Shown piece after piece: positions 1 to 6,224 of a stretch of 35,268 nucleotides of DNA. A program made the position numbers and the translations under genes. The notes beneath the pieces are model-generated. The model was not told where the DNA came from. It ran no database searches and saw only the letters and a program-made list of their open reading frames with translations. Position 1 is the stretch's first letter. Every line of letters starts with the position of its first letter. The stretch is from a virus, in the UHGV virus genome UHGV-0140091; one strand, 5' to 3'.

Positions 1-284
1 TAAAGACTCTCTTAGAAAGCCCTTAAAGATGCCCACCTTATTAATCATACCGTGGGCGAGTACGCCAAATTCTTTGATGAGGGATTGGAAGACCTCACTG
101 GTGTTTAGCCTATCAAGCTACTGCCAGAAAAACATTGTCGTTTGCATTTATTTTAAATTTGCAAAATAGACGCTACGCAACGAAAACTATTCAGAATATG
201 TACAACAAATTTCCCCACATTGTGTTACGTCTAACGCTCATGTATTGGTGTTTGAATTATACATATGCTGAATCATTTTCAGTT

Positions 285-562: not shown

Positions 563-577
563 ATTAAATTATCTTTG

Positions 578-700
578 TAGATAAGCTACCCAGACTTGCT
601 TAAGGTCTGTAGCGATGTGCCTTGTTGGGTTTAAATCTAGAATTTACCCTTTCACCCTTTGTGGTCGCATACTCACAGGTAAGCTTAATAACTTATCTAC
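578..700 (-). ncRNA. candidate structured small RNA (~123 nt) closed by a long terminal helix
   Basis: Perfect 9-bp terminal pairing GUAGAUAAG (700-692) with CUUAUCUAC (586-578), extendable with a bulge (AAGCU/AGCUU). No ORF. Starts 8 nt after a GGUCUGG helix strand, the same spacing seen before two tRNAs. Confidence 0.35.
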
Positions 701-708
701 AAAGATAA

Positions 709-846
709 TTACCAGACCGTTGTTTATCATCTTAAGTGCTACCATTACACCAACTCGACATCTGCCGAGTGAAGGAATCGAACCTTCGCCTTTTCTTTAC
801 CGGAGAAATAGATTGTTTAAGTTTTGCTGTAAACGGTCTTCTGTAA
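709..846 (-). ncRNA. candidate Y RNA-like RNA with circularly permuted tRNA-like domain
   Basis: 5' strand UUACAGAAGACC (846-835) and 3' strand GGUCUGGUAA (718-709) form a bulged helix. Between them, in order: T-arm GAAGG-TTCGATT-CCTTC (787-771), acceptor 3' strand ACTCGGC (770-764), 4-nt loop, acceptor 5' strand GTCGAGT (759-753), TG, D-arm GTGT-AATGGTA-GCAC (750-736). No anticodon arm. Confidence 0.5.
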
Positions 847-853
847 ATTTGTT

Positions 854-933
854 GAGCCAGACCAAGTTTTAAATTTTCAAAATTAAATTGGCTTGAAATT
901 TCATACGTACTTGCTGTAATTGGTCTTCTGCTC
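854..933 (-). ncRNA. bulged-helix RNA module, copy b
   Basis: GAGCAGAAGACC (933-922) pairs with GGUCUGGCUC (863-854): upper helix AGACC/GGUCU, internal loop AGA vs G, lower helix GAGC/GCUC. Ends 7 nt upstream of the Y RNA-like element. Confidence 0.4.
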
Positions 934-1282: not shown

Positions 1283-1348
1283 TTGCCAGACCGTGTTTTT
1301 TCTTTTATCCGCAAAAAGTATTTTGTTGCTGAATACGGTCTTCTGCAA
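1283..1348 (-). ncRNA. bulged-helix RNA module, copy c
   Basis: UUGCAGAAGACC (1348-1337) pairs with GGUCUGGCAA (1292-1283). Lies 3 nt after the CCA of the upstream tRNA and 8 nt before the 5' end of tRNA-Asn. Confidence 0.4.
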
Positions 1349-1428: not shown

Positions 1429-1437
1429 ATTCTTAAT

Positions 1438-1515
1438 GACCAGACCAAATCTCTTCTTTGTCCGATTTACCTTCAGATGAATAAGATTAAGTTTGCTGTA
1501 ATTGGTCTTCTGTCA
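1438..1515 (-). ncRNA. bulged-helix RNA module, copy d
   Basis: UGACAGAAGACC (1515-1504) pairs with GGUCUGGUCA (1447-1438). Lies 4 nt after the CCA of tRNA-Glu and 8 nt before the next tRNA. Confidence 0.4.
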
Positions 1516-1707: not shown

Positions 1708-1737
1708 ACTTTAACATTATTTTTTAGTGATTGTCAA
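1708..1737 (-). promoter_or_regulatory. sigma70-like promoter candidate upstream of the tRNA array
   Basis: Minus strand TTGACA (1737-1732), 18-nt spacer, TAAAGT (1713-1708). Confidence 0.4.
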
Positions 1738-1799
1738 GAACTTTTTTAAAATATTTTTCAGTATCTTAGAAAAGCTCTTATTTCGTTTCTATGTAGAAC

Positions 1800-1829
1800 A
1801 TATTAAAGGGTATCAAACACATTGTCAAT
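1800..1829 (-). promoter_or_regulatory. sigma70-like promoter candidate upstream of the tRNA array
   Basis: Minus strand TTGACA (1829-1824), 18-nt spacer, TAATAT (1805-1800); sits between the stop of the vWA gene and the first tRNA. Confidence 0.5.
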
Positions 1830-1846: not shown

Positions 1847-3261
1847 TTACCAGATATAACGGTCAATCATTACTGCTTTGAGCATTACGCTGATTGGGTC
1901 AAACTTCTCACCACCAAGCAGAGCTTTTAAAGTGGCTGGAGAGAAACCAGACACCATTGCTACACCGTTATCCTTAACAGATACTTCGCAAGTGCCATTA
2001 CGGTTTGCTAAGTACCAGAATACCAGTTGTGGCATCTCATATCCAGCTTTTTTGTACTTGCTCTGAATTGCTTCAAAGTTTGTACGACCGTTAGCTCCAT
2101 CAACCTGATTGAACTCCATATCAGAGAAGATGATAAGCTTACTTGGCATATCTTTCTGAGTCAAGTTGTTTCTTTTACCTGTCTCAAGAATACGGTCAAA
2201 AGCTGCTTGTAAGTTAGTTGAGCCATATTCAACGTGTCGCATCACCTGACGATGACGGTTTCGTAAATCACCACTCAGTTCAATGAAGTGAGGGTTTGTT
2301 GAATAAACCATCAACTCATTCTTAAAGCAACCTGTATTACGTTCTGCTACATACAATGCAAGTGAAACACCAATATCAAGAGCAGTAATTGAACCAAAAT
2401 TCACCCAAGACATTGAACTTGAAACATCAGACATACATAGAATGTTTTCACCCTCTGCCATCCAGTTTGGTAGTGCTTTCCACTGCTCATTAGCAACATC
2501 TGCATTACCATACTTAACAGATTTAATCACATCGTATGGGTAAACAGCACCAGCATTAATCTTAGCCTCACCCTTTGATAATGACTCGATGTAAGCTTTG
2601 TAGCGTTCTCCATCTTTACGGTTAAACAGTTTTTGGTAACGTGCAGCAGCAAGTGAAGGAATCTTACTGTAGTCAATCTTACCAAACTCATTAGCAGAGA
2701 TTTTTTGCTCAACTGTATCAGATAGTGCAGACAACAGTGTGCGGTACTCTTTCTCACTCAAGTTTGCAAACTTGCAGAAACGTTTTACAAACTGTTTGTG
2801 ACGTGGTTTTACTCGTGGTAACCACTTAGCTGCTAAACCTGCTGTTGCAGGGTCTAGTAATGCTGCTTCTAAATGTTTGAAGGCATCTGTCTCGAAACGA
2901 GTACCTACAAAGATTTTGAAGTCATCAAAGCGACCAAGCTCTGCAATCTTATCCATAATGCGAAGAACCTGCGTAGGTTCTAAAACTTTATCTTCAATCG
3001 CTTGAAGTAAAACAGTTCGGAAAGCTTTACGCTCACCATACCTTCTCGTACATCTCGCATATGCAGTAAAATACGAACTGCAACATCAACATCCTCATGC
3101 AAAGCTTTGTAGAACAGGTCTGGTAAGATTTCTACATTGCTACGGCTTGAACCAGCAGCTTTGTAAAAGTCTACAAGAGCAGACATTGATGAAGTATGGT
3201 TTGCAGCACCATTTTCAGTTCGACCTGCATGAAGGTGCGCATGTTTAAATAATTCGCTCAT
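1847..3261 (-). pseudogene. vWA-domain protein with N-terminal helical domain (DUF2828-like by recollection; Ro60/TROVE-like architecture), split by a -1 frameshift
   Basis: Two ORFs (2980-3261 and 1847-2956) overlap in different frames. The downstream frame stays open upstream of its ATG to ~3130 and reads YGERKAFRTVLLQAIEDKVLEPTQVLRIMDKI. Joining ...RDVREG to YGERK... at ~3038-3042 restores one ~470-aa protein. C-terminal part has the vWA MIDAS motif DVSSS. Confidence 0.6.
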
Positions 3262-3342: not shown

Positions 3343-3714
3343 TTATTTTTTGAGAGTCGCTACAGCAGAGAACGTTGGTTTGTTATCTGTCTGAGACTGA
3401 CCACCATTATCAGGGGTCTTCTTAGTGTCTGCTGCAATCGCTTTCATCTCACCTGCTGAGTGAGTCATGATGGTTTTACCAGCCTCCATCATCGACTTCA
3501 GGTTTACATCGTCAGTCGTCAAACCGAACTCTGCAAGCTTAGCAGCATCCCTTGTAACAACCGCCTCAAACAACTTTGCAGCAAACTCAGCAGAATTATC
3601 AATGGTCAGTTGAGCTTTTACGAGTGAGCTTTTGTTACGAGAGCCTTTTGGTCTTCCAGATGGGTTTCCAGACTGGCCTTTTTTAAACTGGCCTTTGTTT
3701 GTTCTGTTTTTCAT
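3343..3714 (-). CDS. hypothetical protein with N-terminal GNPSGRPKG basic motif
   Basis: 123-aa ORF with AAGAGG ribosome-binding site upstream of the ATG. Confidence 0.6.
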   Translation of the reverse strand: MKNRTNKGQFKKGQSGNPSGRPKGSRNKSSLVKAQLTIDNSAEFAAKLFEAVVTRDAAKLAEFGLTTDDVNLKSMMEAGKTIMTHSAGEMKAIAADTKKTPDNGGQSQTDNKPTFSAVATLKK

Positions 3715-5343: not shown

Positions 5344-6224
5344 TTAAAGCAAAGACTTACCCAGACTTCAAAGAGTTTGTGAAGGGCTTCATTGCAAACG
5401 TAAAGGCTGGTAAGAGATATGATTTTAGAACATATCAAGAGGCTATTTTACCACTTACCTATAGTTCATATTGGCCTGAAGCTGATATTGCAGAAGTTGA
5501 GAAGTTTGACTACAAACCAGACTACAAAGTCCCATTTAGTGATGAGTTGCTTTACAGCGTTGGTGCTCAAATGAGAACTTCTGACTTCTTCATGGACTTA
5601 CAATATGCAATTATCAATGGTAAAGATGTTGATACAGTTTATTGTGAATGGCTGGCAAGGGTTAAACCATTCTCAATGTTGAATGCTAAGTTGAAGGATG
5701 CTATCAAGCCACCAGCAATTACTCAGCAGCCAACAGGTCAAACAGTTAATGAGGGTGGCACACTTACTCTAACCATTCTAGCAACTAACGCCACTGGATA
5801 TCAGTGGAAAAAGGATGGTGAGGACATCCCTAGTGCCAATTCTGCAACTTACACAAAACAGTCAGTAGCACCTTCTGACGCTGGTTCATACACTTGTGTT
5901 GTATCTGGAGAAGGTGGAACAAGTGTTACCTCAGATGCAGCAACAGTGACTGTGAATGCACTACCTGTGATTACCAAGCAACCTTCTAACCAGACTATTA
6001 ATGAAGGTGGAAACATCAACTTAGCAGTTACTGCAACAGGTGCAACAGGTTACCAGTGGAAGAAAGGTGAGGAAGATATACTTGATGCAACCGCTGCAAC
6101 TTACACTAAAGAAGGTGCAACCGCTGCTGATTCAGGAAGCTACACCTGTGTAGTTACTGGTGCAGGTGGCTCTGTAACATCTAATGCAGCAACAGTTACA
6201 GTTAACCCAGCAGGGGAGGCATAA
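5340..6224 (+). CDS. hypothetical protein with two C-terminal Ig-like repeats
   Basis: 294 aa. Two ~80-aa tandem repeats, each with NEGG, GYQWKK, ATYTK and GSYTCVV motifs, resembling phage Ig-like (I-set/Big-type) domains. Confidence 0.7.
   Translation: MIKAKTYPDFKEFVKGFIANVKAGKRYDFRTYQEAILPLTYSSYWPEADIAEVEKFDYKPDYKVPFSDELLYSVGAQMRTSDFFMDLQYAIINGKDVDTVYCEWLARVKPFSMLNAKLKDAIKPPAITQQPTGQTVNEGGTLTLTILATNATGYQWKKDGEDIPSANSATYTKQSVAPSDAGSYTCVVSGEGGTSVTSDAATVTVNALPVITKQPSNQTINEGGNINLAVTATGATGYQWKKGEEDILDATAATYTKEGATAADSGSYTCVVTGAGGSVTSNAATVTVNPAGEA

What the first reader, a model, noticed from the sequence alone, without database searches (positions are those of the whole stretch)
709..846. Circularly permuted tRNA-like domain inside a covarying bulged helix: candidate Y RNA-like tRNA mimic beside a Ro60-like gene
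A perfect T-arm (GAAGG-TTCGATT-CCTTC) and acceptor 3' strand ACTCGGC are followed after only 4 nt by GTCGAGT, whose seven bases all pair with that acceptor strand, then TG and a canonical D-arm (GTGT-AATGGTA-GCAC). There is no anticodon arm. The order T-arm, acceptor 3', loop, acceptor 5', D-arm is a circular permutation of a tRNA, with the acceptor stem capped by a tetraloop. The domain is enclosed by UUACAGAAGACC and GGUCUGGUAA, which pair as a helix with an asymmetric internal loop exactly where a tRNA would have its anticodon stem. This is the architecture described for bacterial YrlA-type Y RNAs, which bind Ro60/Rsr. The element lies on the same strand ~1 kb downstream of a vWA gene with Ro60-like domain organisation.
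Basis: partly seen in the sequence, partly recalled or inferred. Interest (0 to 1): 0.9.

Follow-up and report, generated by a model that had tools for sequence, protein, structure and literature searches.

The report
tRNA-mimic Y-like RNA beside phage Ro60
Between the tRNA genes of this Felix-O1-type phage lie four small structured RNAs, one of them a circularly permuted tRNA look-alike, that most likely partner the neighbouring Ro60-like protein; the same RNA design sits beside over half of the ~155 related genes examined and closely resembles the unexplained Class I RNAs of social amoebae.

Summary
On the minus strand, 846->709 holds a T arm, a closed 7-bp acceptor stem, U-G and a D arm, enclosed by a bulged helix. 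No tRNA finder calls it.

The element is one of four paralogous modules in the tRNA array. All share AAG, a 7-bp covarying helix, UUWCAGCAA, a variable insert, the return strand and CUG.

Covariance models and two model-free descriptors find the same module beside distant DUF2828 genes: 40 of 75 viral loci and 54 of 80 genome loci. Every model hit lies on the gene's strand, including loci without tRNAs.

Many relatives carry the same tRNA-like insert. Clostridial-type loci carry the exact circular permutation: a normal tRNA body whose anticodon loop is replaced by the module.

Architecture matches YrlA, but Rfam YrlA does not reach threshold and the GNCGAA motif is absent.

The module reproduces the defining features of Dictyostelium Class I RNAs.

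Verdict: a new variant of the Ro60/Y RNA system. RNA expression and binding to the protein are untested.

The parts
709..846 (-). E4: a 138-nt Y RNA-like RNA with a circularly permuted tRNA-like domain (YrlA-type architecture).
   Evidence: RNAfold. Orthologue alignment and RNAalifold. Covariance-model hits of 153, 121 and 93.6 bits. Descriptor scan.
834..846 (-). 5' strand of the module. UUAC is outer helix 1, AGA is an internal loop, and AGACCG is the 5' strand of helix 2. It carries the conserved (A)AG.
   Evidence: Four exact copies of CAGAAGACC on this strand. Family consensus A9, G10. Helix 1 covaries among the paralogues: GAC/GUC, UUGC/GCAA, GAGC/GCUC, UUAC/GUAA.
824..833 (-). UUUACAGCAA, the near-invariant single-stranded motif (family consensus UUWCAGCAA). 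It is the presumed protein-recognition site.
   Evidence: C19, G21 and C22 are present in 53 of 53 non-redundant family members that have a base at that column (54 rows), and A23 in 52 of 53. The motif is identical to the core of the Class I RNA 11-nt motif.
792..808 (-). V hairpin UUUCU-CCGGUAA-AGAAA, a variable-arm equivalent and not a conserved anticodon arm.
   Evidence: The loop differs or the hairpin is missing in orthologues and distant members. Rfam's tRNA model aligns it as an anticodon arm only in a partial, sub-threshold match.
771..787 (-). T arm GAAGG-UUCGAUU-CCUUC.
   Evidence: Invariant in Ounavirinae. The stem covaries across the family while GG/UUCRA/CC is kept.
753..770 (-). 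Closed acceptor-like stem: ACUCGGC (equivalent to tRNA positions 66-72), loop AGAU, GUCGAGU (positions 1-7).
   Evidence: Fully compensatory changes in Suspvirus and Mooglevirus and in about 17 distant members.
736..752 (-). U8-G9 linker and D arm GUGU-AAUGGUA-GCAC, with A14, G18-G19 and A21.
   Evidence: The linker is UA or UG in nearly all family members listed, matching the conserved UA linker of YrlA.
709..719 (-). 3' strand of the module: CGGUCU (helix 2), the unpaired G, and GUAA (helix 1).
   Evidence: G358 is unpaired and present in 53 of 53 members with a base there; the G10-C356 pair is kept in 49 of 53.
854..933 (-). E3: the same module enclosing an AU-rich hairpin and no tRNA-like domain (YrlB-like or Class I-like).
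   Evidence: Fold.
1283..1348 (-). E2: a 66-nt short module between tRNA-Met and tRNA-Asn.
   Evidence: Rfam Class I RNA model gives 24 bits over its full length.
1437..1515 (-). E1: a 79-nt short module between tRNA-Glu and tRNA-Met.
   Evidence: Rfam Class I RNA model gives 19.7 bits.
1847..3261 (-). Ro60-like gene (Pfam DUF2828 + DUF7788/vWA), the orthologue of Bas63 gp130. In this window it is split by a 1-nt deletion in a G run near 3037 into ORFs 2980-3261 and 1847-2956.
1708..1828 (-). Two sigma-70-like promoters upstream of the tRNA/Y-like RNA array: TTGACA-17-TAATAT at 1828-1800 and TTGACA-18-TAAAGT with an upstream TG at 1737-1708.
   Evidence: Consensus scan. This is a pattern match only. 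The number of sites found does not exceed the number in shuffled sequence, so function is inferred.

Best explanation
E4 (846->709, minus strand) is a stable non-coding RNA of the Y RNA kind, built from two modules.

Module 1, the protein-binding module. It is formed by the RNA's two ends: a short outer helix, an unpaired G, a 7-bp helix, and an asymmetric internal loop that carries the near-invariant UUWCAGCAA. It is proposed to be bound by the ring-shaped Ro60-like protein encoded 1 kb upstream (DUF2828/DUF7788, equivalent to Bas63 gp130).

Module 2, the tRNA mimic. It has a T arm and a D arm that can form the tRNA elbow, and an acceptor stem closed by a loop. It joins module 1 where a tRNA would have its anticodon stem. 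It is proposed to bring a tRNA-recognising factor to the protein, or to gate the protein's access to RNA, as proposed for YrlA.

E1, E2 and E3 are sibling RNAs with the same binding module and other inserts.

All four are inferred to be transcribed with the tRNAs from the promoters just downstream of the gene. They would be released by the tRNA-processing enzymes, because they lie 3-9 nt from flanking tRNA ends. Their paired termini would protect them from exonucleases.

Shown here: the sequence and structure, the covariation, the gene linkage and the predicted protein fold.
Inferred: transcription, processing, binding and the downstream role. That role is most likely RNA surveillance or counter-defence during infection.
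For: Structure:
- Every helix is recovered by RNAfold and RNAalifold.
- On 41 family members, 95.1% of pair cells are paired, against 61.7% in shuffles and 34-42% when partners are slid. 29 of 30 pairs show double changes.
- tRNA hallmarks are kept: UUCRA T loop, U8, A14, GG, and a pyrimidine at position 48 in most members. G15-C48 or A15-U48 pairs occur in about 10 of 14 informative members, by my reading of the table.

Partner protein:
- The MIDAS residues D279, S281, S283, T349 and D381 are invariant.

Linkage:
- Model R3 finds 64 hits in 40 of 75 distant viral loci (protein 39-47% identical) and 78 hits in 54 of 80 genome loci (33-42% identical). All 142 are on the gene's strand, and most lie within a few hundred nt of the gene.
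- There are no hits in 46 kb of Bxz1, elsewhere in the window, or in the distal tRNA array of Bas63.
- Loci L036, L046, L049, L054 and L070 have the RNA but no tRNA within 6 kb. The RNA therefore follows the gene, not tRNA arrays.
- A model-free module descriptor gives 71 hits on the gene strand against 1 on the other strand in the viral loci. The four in the window are also all on the gene strand.

Precedent:
- YrlA has the same order of parts next to Ro60.
- Rfam YrlA scores 38.9, 28.7 and 26.7 bits on three distant family members.
- Phage phiLo Ro60 binds Y-like RNAs encoded beside it.
- The PhageMaP authors predicted, but did not find, Y RNAs downstream of Bas63 gp130.
Against: - There is no evidence of expression, processing or binding; none can be obtained with these tools.
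- Rfam YrlA (gathering score 69) gives no hit on the window element even at E<=10.
- The published Rsr-binding motif GNCGAAN0-1G is absent.
- The protein has no sequence-level match to TROVE or to Ro60 chains. hhalign against Bxz1 Ro60 reaches only 50% probability, over the MIDAS segment. The relationship therefore rests on a predicted structure.
- gp130 expressed alone, from a plasmid or from the T7 genome, rescues T7 on the ppl defence. That phenotype does not need the phage RNAs, unless host RNAs substitute.
- In this window the gene is frameshifted while the RNAs are intact.
- The RNAfold z-score of E4 alone is unremarkable at -1.55.
- The pair counts were made on alignments fitted to the model, which lean towards the structure.
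Confidence: 0.75

Rival explanations
1. The element is a tRNA-mimic decoy or two-piece tRNA-like RNA that acts independently of the Ro60-like protein. Because its acceptor stem has 7 bp, RNase P would cut 5' of G759 and the CCA-adding enzyme would finish the upstream piece. The product would titrate, or be used by, tRNA-binding host factors such as anticodon nucleases of defence systems, modification enzymes or synthetases.
For: - The 7-bp acceptor stem stacked on a 5-bp T stem matches M. smegmatis YrlA, which is cut by RNase P and receives CCA.
- Four relatives encode N-CCA directly after a 7-bp acceptor strand: L005, L080:10481, L080:7792 and L050:7521.
- Clostridial-type relatives have open acceptor ends, some with an encoded CCA.
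- The element sits in a tRNA array.
- gp130 alone suffices against ppl.
Against: - The tRNA-like body is always fused to the conserved module.
- That module also occurs without any tRNA-like insert, and it tracks the DUF2828 gene even where no tRNAs are nearby.
- Many relatives close the acceptor stem with stable GNRA or UNCG tetraloops, or have 6-bp stems, which are poor RNase P substrates.
- This reading is compatible with the main explanation as an added step rather than a replacement.
Confidence: 0.12
2. The four modules are cis-acting punctuation of the tRNA precursor. They would be processing or stability hairpins recognised by RNase E, RNase III or RNase P, with no dedicated protein partner.
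For: - They lie 3-9 nt from tRNA ends and on the tRNA strand.
- Most related loci also carry tRNAs.
Against: - Modules occur beside DUF2828 genes in loci with no tRNA within 6 kb.
- They are absent from the distal 24-tRNA part of the Bas63 array and from the tRNA-containing 46 kb of Bxz1.
- A 9-nt near-invariant single-stranded motif and an invariant unpaired G, kept across proteins only 33-47% identical, point to a specific binder. A generic RNase site would not explain them.
Confidence: 0.08
3. The element is a decayed relic without function: a degenerate or dimeric tRNA remnant, a genuinely permuted tRNA gene, or a MITE-like repeat that spread in the array.
For: - A published model derives YrlA from dimeric tRNA transcripts.
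- One GenBank record annotates a 131-nt 'tRNA-Thr GGT' over E3/E4.
- The module termini look like imperfect inverted repeats.
Against: - The element is 96-100% conserved in 212 records, and about 40 more hold it at 74-95% identity, with purely compensatory changes in the stems of the four divergent versions aligned.
- The strand bias is absolute, 142 of 142 hits, unlike mobile repeats.
- The would-be anticodon loop is not conserved and lacks U33.
- ARAGORN finds no tRNA or tmRNA here.
- The REP6 call needs a mismatched acceptor stem.
Confidence: 0.03

Closest known systems
YrlA, the bacterial and phage Y RNA-like A family (Rfam RF02553; Chen et al. 2014, PMC4201824; Wang et al. 2018, bioRxiv 10.1101/312249)
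   Same: - Same order of parts: 5' protein-binding strand, V stem-loop, T arm, closed acceptor stem, UA/UG linker, D arm, 3' strand.
- tRNA tertiary-contact nucleotides are kept.
- Encoded beside a Ro60-type ring protein, with several Y-like RNAs per locus.
- A 7-bp acceptor stem, as in M. smegmatis YrlA.
- RF02553 scores 26.7-38.9 bits on three distant members of this family.
- Model R2 finds the tRNA-like core of Bxz1 YrlA at 21.4 bits.
   Different: - RF02553 gives no hit on the window element at E<=10, and no family member reaches the gathering score of 69.
- GNCGAAN0-1G is replaced by (A)AG plus UUWCAGCAA plus an unpaired G.
- The partner protein is DUF2828/DUF7788, not TROVE/vWA_Ro60.
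- The RNAs are embedded in a tRNA operon.
- The family also exists in a non-permuted topology with an open acceptor end.
Dictyostelid Class I RNAs (Rfam RF01414; Aspegren 2004; Avesson 2011; Kjellin et al. 2021, PMC7919456)
   Same: - Termini AAG ... CUG(U), with the G pairing the C.
- A short stem joining the 5' and 3' ends that covaries while its sequence drifts.
- The motif (CC)UUACAGCAA directly after the 5' stem strand, with the same near-invariant positions (U3, C6, C9, A10, A11).
- A variable remainder.
- Many paralogues, in clusters.
- All five RF01414 hits seen here fall exactly on modules, on the gene strand.
   Different: - Scores are 12.8-24.3 bits against a gathering score of 41.5.
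- There is one nucleotide less between the G and CAGCAA.
- The window copies have an extra outer helix.
- E4 carries a 100-nt tRNA-like insert.
- The host is a phage of enterobacteria, not an amoeba, and there is no DUSE promoter.
- The only known direct binder of Class I RNAs is the RRM protein Rnp1A.
- Whether dictyostelids encode a DUF2828 protein could not be tested here.
Ro60/Rsr proteins (TROVE + vWA), including phage phiLo Ro60 (PDB 9KOP, 9L5Y) and Bxz1 gp220
   Same: - A C-terminal vWA domain with an intact MIDAS motif.
- Encoded next to Y-like RNAs.
- RefSeq already names the Felixounavirus protein 'RNA-binding protein'.
- The PhageMaP authors noted the Ro60-like fold of Bas63 gp130.
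   Different: - No sequence-level match to TROVE.
- About 470 aa against 500-550 aa.
- A separate and large family: 8,936 clusters at 50% identity with E<=0.001.
YrlB, D. radiodurans Yrn1/Yrn2, phiLo Yrl1/Yrl2 and metazoan Y RNAs
   Same: E1-E3 resemble them: short RNAs whose paired ends form a bulged protein-binding stem around a variable loop, with several per locus.
   Different: - Different conserved nucleotides: CGAA or GGUCCGA motifs against UUWCAGCAA.
- None of these models matches E1-E3 in Rfam.
Circularly permuted tRNA genes (Cyanidioschyzon merolae) and two-piece permuted tmRNA. This comparison rests on my own knowledge.
   Same: Gene order is T arm and acceptor 3' strand first, then acceptor 5' strand and D arm.
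   Different: - No conserved anticodon arm, and no tag reading frame or pseudoknots.
- ARAGORN finds neither a tRNA nor a tmRNA.
- The junction is a 4-nt loop, and relatives use stable tetraloops.

Membership tests
YrlA (RF02553) | Order V, T arm, closed acceptor-like stem, D arm, with the 5' and 3' ends leaving through the anticodon-stem position. | tested here: met
   The same descriptor recovers the Bxz1 YrlA control.
YrlA (RF02553) | Conserved tRNA elbow and tertiary-contact nucleotides: T loop UUCRA, D loop A14/G18G19/A21, U8-N9 linker, a pyrimidine before the T stem, and a Levitt 15-48 pair. | tested here: met
   All are present in the window element except the Levitt pair, which reads A15.C48. 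It is A15-U48 in phage REP6. Across the family it is G15-C48 or A15-U48 in about 10 of 14 informative members, by my reading.
YrlA (RF02553) | GNCGAAN0-1G motif near the 5' end. | tested here: not met
   The window has UUACAGAAGACC. The family consensus is (A)AAG-helix, with no G-N-C-G-A-A.
YrlA (RF02553) | Score at or above Rfam's gathering threshold of 69 bits. | tested here: not met
   No hit at E<=10 on the window. The best relatives score 38.9, 28.7 and 26.7 bits. The canonical Bxz1 YrlA itself scores only 32.5 bits.
YrlA (RF02553) | Encoded adjacent to a Ro60 orthologue. | tested here: inconclusive
   The adjacent protein has a Ro60 fold by prediction but belongs to Pfam DUF2828/DUF7788, not TROVE. 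The control gp220 is TROVE + vWA_Ro60.
YrlA (RF02553) | Bound by Ro60/Rsr, and modified by TruB and DusA. | not testable with these tools
   Needs immunoprecipitation or EMSA, and mapping of modifications.
Dictyostelid Class I RNA (RF01414) | A short covarying stem joining the 5' and 3' ends, with conserved termini AAG ... CUG(U). | tested here: met
   A9 in 40 of 53, G10 in 49 of 53, C356 in 49 of 53, U357 in 43 of 53, G358 in 53 of 53. Helix 2 is paired in 98.9% of cells and all 7 pairs show double changes. Definition taken.
Dictyostelid Class I RNA (RF01414) | An 11-nt motif CCUUACAGCAA adjacent to the 5' stem strand, with U3, C6, C9, A10 and A11 near invariant. | tested here: met
   UUWCAGCAA, with U17 in 50 of 53, C19 in 53 of 53, C22 in 53 of 53, A23 in 52 of 53 and A24 in 47 of 53. 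The first two C's of the motif are not conserved, and the spacing is 1 nt shorter.
Dictyostelid Class I RNA (RF01414) | Score at or above Rfam's gathering threshold of 41.5 bits; length 42-65 nt. | tested here: not met
   Scores are 24.3, 24, 23.4, 19.7 and 12.8 bits. E1-E3 are 66-80 nt and E4 is 138 nt.
Dictyostelid Class I RNA (RF01414) | Dictyostelid genomic context: DUSE promoter and Rnp1A binding. | tested here: not met
   The context is a phage tRNA operon in an enterobacterial phage. Rnp1A binding cannot be tested.
Ro60/TROVE protein family (the neighbouring gene) | A ring of HEAT-like helical repeats closed by a vWA domain with a MIDAS motif. | tested here: met
   [not shown]
Ro60/TROVE protein family (the neighbouring gene) | A match to Pfam TROVE (PF05731) or vWA_Ro60 (PF25045). 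| tested here: not met
   Only DUF2828 and DUF7788 match. There is no sequence hit to Ro60 chains in the PDB.
tRNA | A cloverleaf in standard order with an anticodon arm, detected by ARAGORN or Rfam RF00005. | tested here: not met
   No ARAGORN call. RF00005 gives only a partial match of 22-23 bits, below its threshold of 29.

The most novel reading that the evidence does not exclude
DUF2828-type Ro60 paralogues and 'AAG-stem-UUACAGCAA ... stem-CUG' RNAs form one ribonucleoprotein family, and it reaches from enterobacterial, vibrio and clostridial phages to social amoebae.
- The Class I RNAs of Dictyostelium were reported as unique to dictyostelids and have had no known function for about 20 years. 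On this reading they are the amoebal members of the family, and their missing partner would be a DUF2828-like ring protein.
- In phages the same binding module is fused to a tRNA body in either of two circularly permuted topologies. One has open, CCA-bearing acceptor ends that could be charged or sensed like a tRNA.
Probability: 0.35. Interest if true: 0.9.

Novelty: new variant of a known kind. Interest (0 to 1): 0.8.

Why it matters
1. It supplies candidates for the missing RNA half of a phage counter-defence factor.
   - Bas63 gp130 neutralises the ppl defence, and its discoverers guessed that Y RNAs were hidden among the downstream tRNA genes.
   - The candidates are four unannotated RNAs in the gaps between those tRNAs. 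Public records partly cover them with spurious ORFs.

2. It gives the first candidate RNA partners for DUF2828/DUF7788. This family has about 9,000 clusters at 50% identity and no known function. It would join the Ro60/Y RNA world.

3. The family exists as two exact circular permutations of one design: a tRNA body joined through its anticodon stem to a protein-binding module. This is a natural experiment on what the tRNA mimic is for, and it bears on how Y RNAs arose from tRNAs.

4. The module matches the defining features of Dictyostelium Class I RNAs. A long-standing question, what those RNAs bind and do, becomes directly testable.

Tried and rejected
- Ordinary tRNA or tmRNA mis-parsed. ARAGORN and Rfam find nine flanking tRNAs but nothing at 709-846. 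Rejected.

- Functional permuted tRNA-Thr(GGU) with the V hairpin as anticodon arm. Rejected for three reasons: the loop lacks U33; it changes to CUAUAAA or disappears in close relatives; and many distant members have no such hairpin. The 131-nt 'tRNA-Thr' in the REP6 record needs a mismatched acceptor stem.

- Sequence-level link of the protein to Ro60. phmmer and a profile search against PDB sequences, Pfam, NCBIfam and hhalign gave nothing convincing. Only the structure comparison works.

- Linkage to tRNA arrays rather than to the gene. Rejected, because loci without tRNAs still carry the RNA, and distal tRNA arrays and Bxz1 lack it.

- Anticodon-stem equivalent of E4. Several pairings are possible (CUUA/UAAG, AUCU/AGAU). 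They are not consistently supported by the few orthologues. Left open.

- Chen 2014 supplementary alignments, Avesson 2011 and the Sim 2020 review are not held.

- The afdb50 fold library is not available. I therefore could not ask whether Dictyostelium has a DUF2828 protein.

- Literature searches for DUF2828, PF11443, Ro60-like and Felixounavirus Y RNA found no prior description of these RNAs.
Full report
**Where the window comes from.** The first 4 kb match 307 phage records at 80-99% identity. Most are Felixounavirus and its relatives in the Ounavirinae. The finding lies on the minus strand inside a tRNA operon. ARAGORN finds nine tRNAs at 329-1681, all on the minus strand, and nothing at 709-846. 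Rfam at gathering score gives tRNAs only.

**Check of the observation.** Read from 846 to 709 the RNA is:

UUAC AGA AGACCG UUUACAGCAA (15 nt) [UUUCU-CCGGUAA-AGAAA] AGGC [GAAGG-UUCGAUU-CCUUC] [ACUCGGC-AGAU-GUCGAGU] UG [GUGU-AAUGGUA-GCAC] (16 nt) CGGUCU G GUAA.

It takes the place of YrlA's 'V' stem-loop.
- Its loop is not conserved, so it is not an anticodon arm. Rfam's tRNA model nevertheless uses it that way in a partial 22-23-bit match.

**The element is one of four.** CAGAAGACC occurs four times exactly, all on the minus strand within 700 nt. Each copy opens a module that closes with GGUCUGG.

| RNA | Position (minus strand) | Insert |
|---|---|---|
| E1 | 1515->1437 | no tRNA-like domain |
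| E2 | 1348->1283 | no tRNA-like domain |
| E3 | 933->854 | AU-rich hairpin, no tRNA-like domain |
| E4 | 846->709 | tRNA-like domain |

- The outer 3-4 bp differ and stay complementary among the four: GAC/GUC, UUGC/GCAA, GAGC/GCUC, UUAC/GUAA.
- E1 and E2 sit 3-9 nt from the flanking tRNA ends. E3 and E4 are 7 nt apart.
- Two strong sigma-70-like promoters lie between the upstream gene and the first tRNA.
- I infer co-transcription with the tRNAs, and release by the tRNA-processing enzymes for E1 and E2, which abut tRNA ends.

**Orthologues.**
- The element is 96-100% identical in 212 records. About 40 further records hold it at 74-95% identity, in Suspvirus and Mooglevirus.
- In those genera the T and D arms are unchanged. 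The acceptor-like stem is completely rewritten but still pairs: ACACGU[UACG]GCGUGU and ACCCUUC[GCCAAACA]GAAGGGU.

**The neighbouring gene.**
- ORFs 2980-3261 and 1847-2956 are two pieces of one 471-codon gene. A 1-nt deletion in a G run near 3037 splits it, inside an invariant motif.
- Relatives have it intact. Pfam assigns DUF2828 + DUF7788.
- Sequence searches do not reach Ro60.
- An AlphaFold model built on 50 homologues is confident (pLDDT 89.7).
- The gene is 97% identical to Bas63 gp130.
- The PhageMaP preprint described gp130 as Ro60-like and as a counter of the ppl defence. It suggested that some downstream 'tRNA genes' might be Y RNAs.
- Model R3 finds the same four RNAs in Bas63. None is annotated; two lie under small reverse-strand ORFs.

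**Is the RNA tied to the gene?** I fetched 75 distant viral loci (protein 39-47% identical) and 80 loci from bacterial genome assemblies (33-42% identical). I searched them with covariance models built iteratively from the Ounavirinae elements.

| Locus set | R3 hits | Loci with a hit | Strand |
|---|---|---|---|
| Distant viral loci | 64 | 40 of 75 | all on the gene's strand |
| Genome-assembly loci | 78 | 54 of 80 | all on the gene's strand |

- Most hits lie within a few hundred nucleotides of the gene.
- There are none in 46 kb of mycobacteriophage Bxz1, none elsewhere in the 35-kb window, and none in the distal 24-tRNA stretch of Bas63.
- Five loci carry the RNA with no tRNA within 6 kb.
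- Two model-free descriptors agree.
  - The permuted tRNA pattern gives 15 hits, all on the gene strand, and none in shuffles.
  - The module pattern gives 71 hits against 1 in the viral loci.
- On the 41-member alignment, 95.1% of pair cells pair, against 61.7% in shuffles and 34-42% when partners are slid. 29 of 30 pairs show compensatory changes. That alignment was fitted to the model, which favours the structure. The descriptor scans do not have that bias.

**Anatomy of the family.** The module reads: (U/A)(U/A)NN - AA - [A G R A U N N] - U U W C A G C A A ... A-rich ... [N N A U Y C U] - G - (U/A)UAA.
- C19, G21 and C22 are present in 53 of 53 members with a base there, and A23 in 52 of 53.
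- The G after the 3' strand is always present and unpaired.
- About 17 distinct members carry the tRNA-like insert.
- Their acceptor stems have 5-8 bp. Some close with stable GNRA or UNCG tetraloops.
- In four cases the loop begins N-CCA directly after a 7-bp strand, which suggests cleavage and a free CCA end in a subset.

**A second topology.**
- In many Clostridia-type loci, Rfam's tRNA model and ARAGORN with introns allowed report 100-140-nt 'tRNAs' just upstream of the gene.
- These have an open 7-bp acceptor stem, sometimes with an encoded CCA, and normal D and T arms.
- In place of the anticodon loop they carry an insert reading ...AAAAU-[7-bp hairpin, loop often starting with G]-UAACAGCAA....
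- That is the exact circular permutation of the window's module: D arm, A-rich strand, helix 3' strand, G, outer end, helix 5' strand, UWWCAGCAA, then the V and T arms.
- 36 such calls carry the motif, and all 36 are on the gene strand.
- The unit under selection is therefore a tRNA body joined through its anticodon stem to this module. Where the RNA ends lie is free to vary.

**Comparison with YrlA.**
- The architecture is the published one.
- Rfam does hold YrlA as RF02553. It finds the Bxz1 YrlA beside a true TROVE protein at 32.5 bits. It gives 26.7-38.9 bits on three distant members of this family.
- It does not report the window element at E<=10.
- GNCGAAN0-1G is absent, and the partner belongs to another Pfam family.
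- My model finds only the tRNA-like core of Bxz1 YrlA.
- Conclusion: it works like a YrlA but is not a demonstrable member of RF02553.

**Comparison with Class I RNAs.**
- The only other Rfam family that touches the modules is RF01414, Dictyostelium Class I RNA.
- It gives five sub-threshold, full-length hits of 12.8-24.3 bits. Every one lies on a module.
- The published definition is: start AAG, end CUGU, a 6-bp covarying terminal stem, an 11-nt motif CCUUACAGCAA after the 5' strand with U3, C6, C9, A10 and A11 near invariant, and the rest variable.
- The phage family reproduces this position by position, apart from a 1-nt shorter spacing.
- Those RNAs were reported as absent outside Dictyostelia, and their function is unknown.
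- I could not test whether dictyostelids encode a DUF2828 protein. The link is therefore a strong resemblance, not a shown homology.

**Caveats.**
- Nothing here shows transcription, processing or binding.
- gp130 alone rescues T7 on ppl, so at least that activity does not require the phage RNAs.
- The gene is frameshifted in this window. This may be a homopolymer sequencing error.
- Many 'genome' loci are MAG contigs that may be phage DNA.
- E-values from the shortened model calibration are rough.

**Verdict.**
- E4 is best described as a YrlA-like tRNA-mimic RNA of a previously undescribed Y-like RNA family.
- That family is linked to DUF2828-type Ro60 paralogues, a protein family of 8,936 clusters at 50% identity. 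The RNA has been sampled beside about 155 of those genes.
- It has two permuted topologies and an unexpected likeness to Class I RNAs.

Noticed in passing
window 565-706, minus strand: A fifth structured RNA (E5, about 142 nt) lies between E4 and tRNA-Lys. A closing helix of about 23 bp (a 19-bp perfect inverted repeat in the window) encloses two or three hairpins. It is conserved in Felixounavirus, Suspvirus and Mooglevirus, with 11 of 52 predicted pairs compensated. It lacks the UUWCAGCAA module and has no Rfam match.
   Followed up: partly
window ~3037 (gene 1847-3261, minus strand): The Ro60-like gene has a 1-nt deletion in a G run (TATGGGTG to TATGGTG), causing a frameshift at about codon 75 inside the invariant DVRxGxGER motif. 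Relatives are intact. It may be a real pseudogene or a homopolymer sequencing error.
   Followed up: partly
L124:1710-2877, L126, L130, L132, L135, L150, L151, L152, L160, L168 (upstream of DUF2828 genes in Clostridia-type assemblies): These are tRNA-like genes of 100-140 nt in normal topology. They have open acceptor stems, some with an encoded CCA, and the anticodon loop is replaced by a hairpin plus UAACAGCAA. There are two to four per locus. L124:1710-1826 has a G3.U70 pair, the alanine identity element.
   Followed up: partly
L044:5727-5838: A module of the window type (AAAAGGUUAG-UUUCAGCAA ... CUAACCUG) encloses a tRNA-Thr(UGU)-like sequence in normal order that ARAGORN calls a tRNA (5753-5824). 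Here the module joins at the acceptor end rather than at the anticodon stem.
   Followed up: no
L005:2509-2637, L080:10481-10611, L080:7792-7922, L050:7521-7640: Four permuted members encode N-CCA immediately after a 7-bp acceptor 3' strand, inside the 'closing' loop. Others use GNRA or UNCG tetraloops. This suggests two subtypes, cleavable and closed.
   Followed up: no
window 615-872 (+); L001:1114-1371; L170:16749-17023: Public records place hypothetical ORFs on the opposite strand across E4/E5 (Phi87_08, bas63_0137, bas63_0138). The REP6 record (L007:268-398) annotates a 131-nt 'tRNA-Thr GGT' over E3/E4. These are probably annotation artefacts.
   Followed up: partly
window 113-280, minus strand: A weak Rfam match to permuted tmRNA (22.2 bits, E 0.11, gathering score 47) lies downstream of a strong promoter-like site at 313-285. 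ARAGORN finds no tmRNA there.
   Followed up: no
L033:1317-1767; L038, L040, L045, L060 (about 5-6 kb downstream of the DUF2828 gene): Several distant DUF2828 loci also encode a phage tmRNA on the same strand. One is permuted (L033, Rfam 71.7 bits). L031:11696-11922 holds a group I intron.
   Followed up: no
window 3343-3714, minus strand: A DUF5681 gene lies directly upstream of the Ro60-like gene, as in UAB_Phi87, ESh22, Moogle and HP1, and as an unnamed ORF of the same size and position in Bas63. Whether it belongs functionally with the Ro60-like gene was not examined.
   Followed up: no
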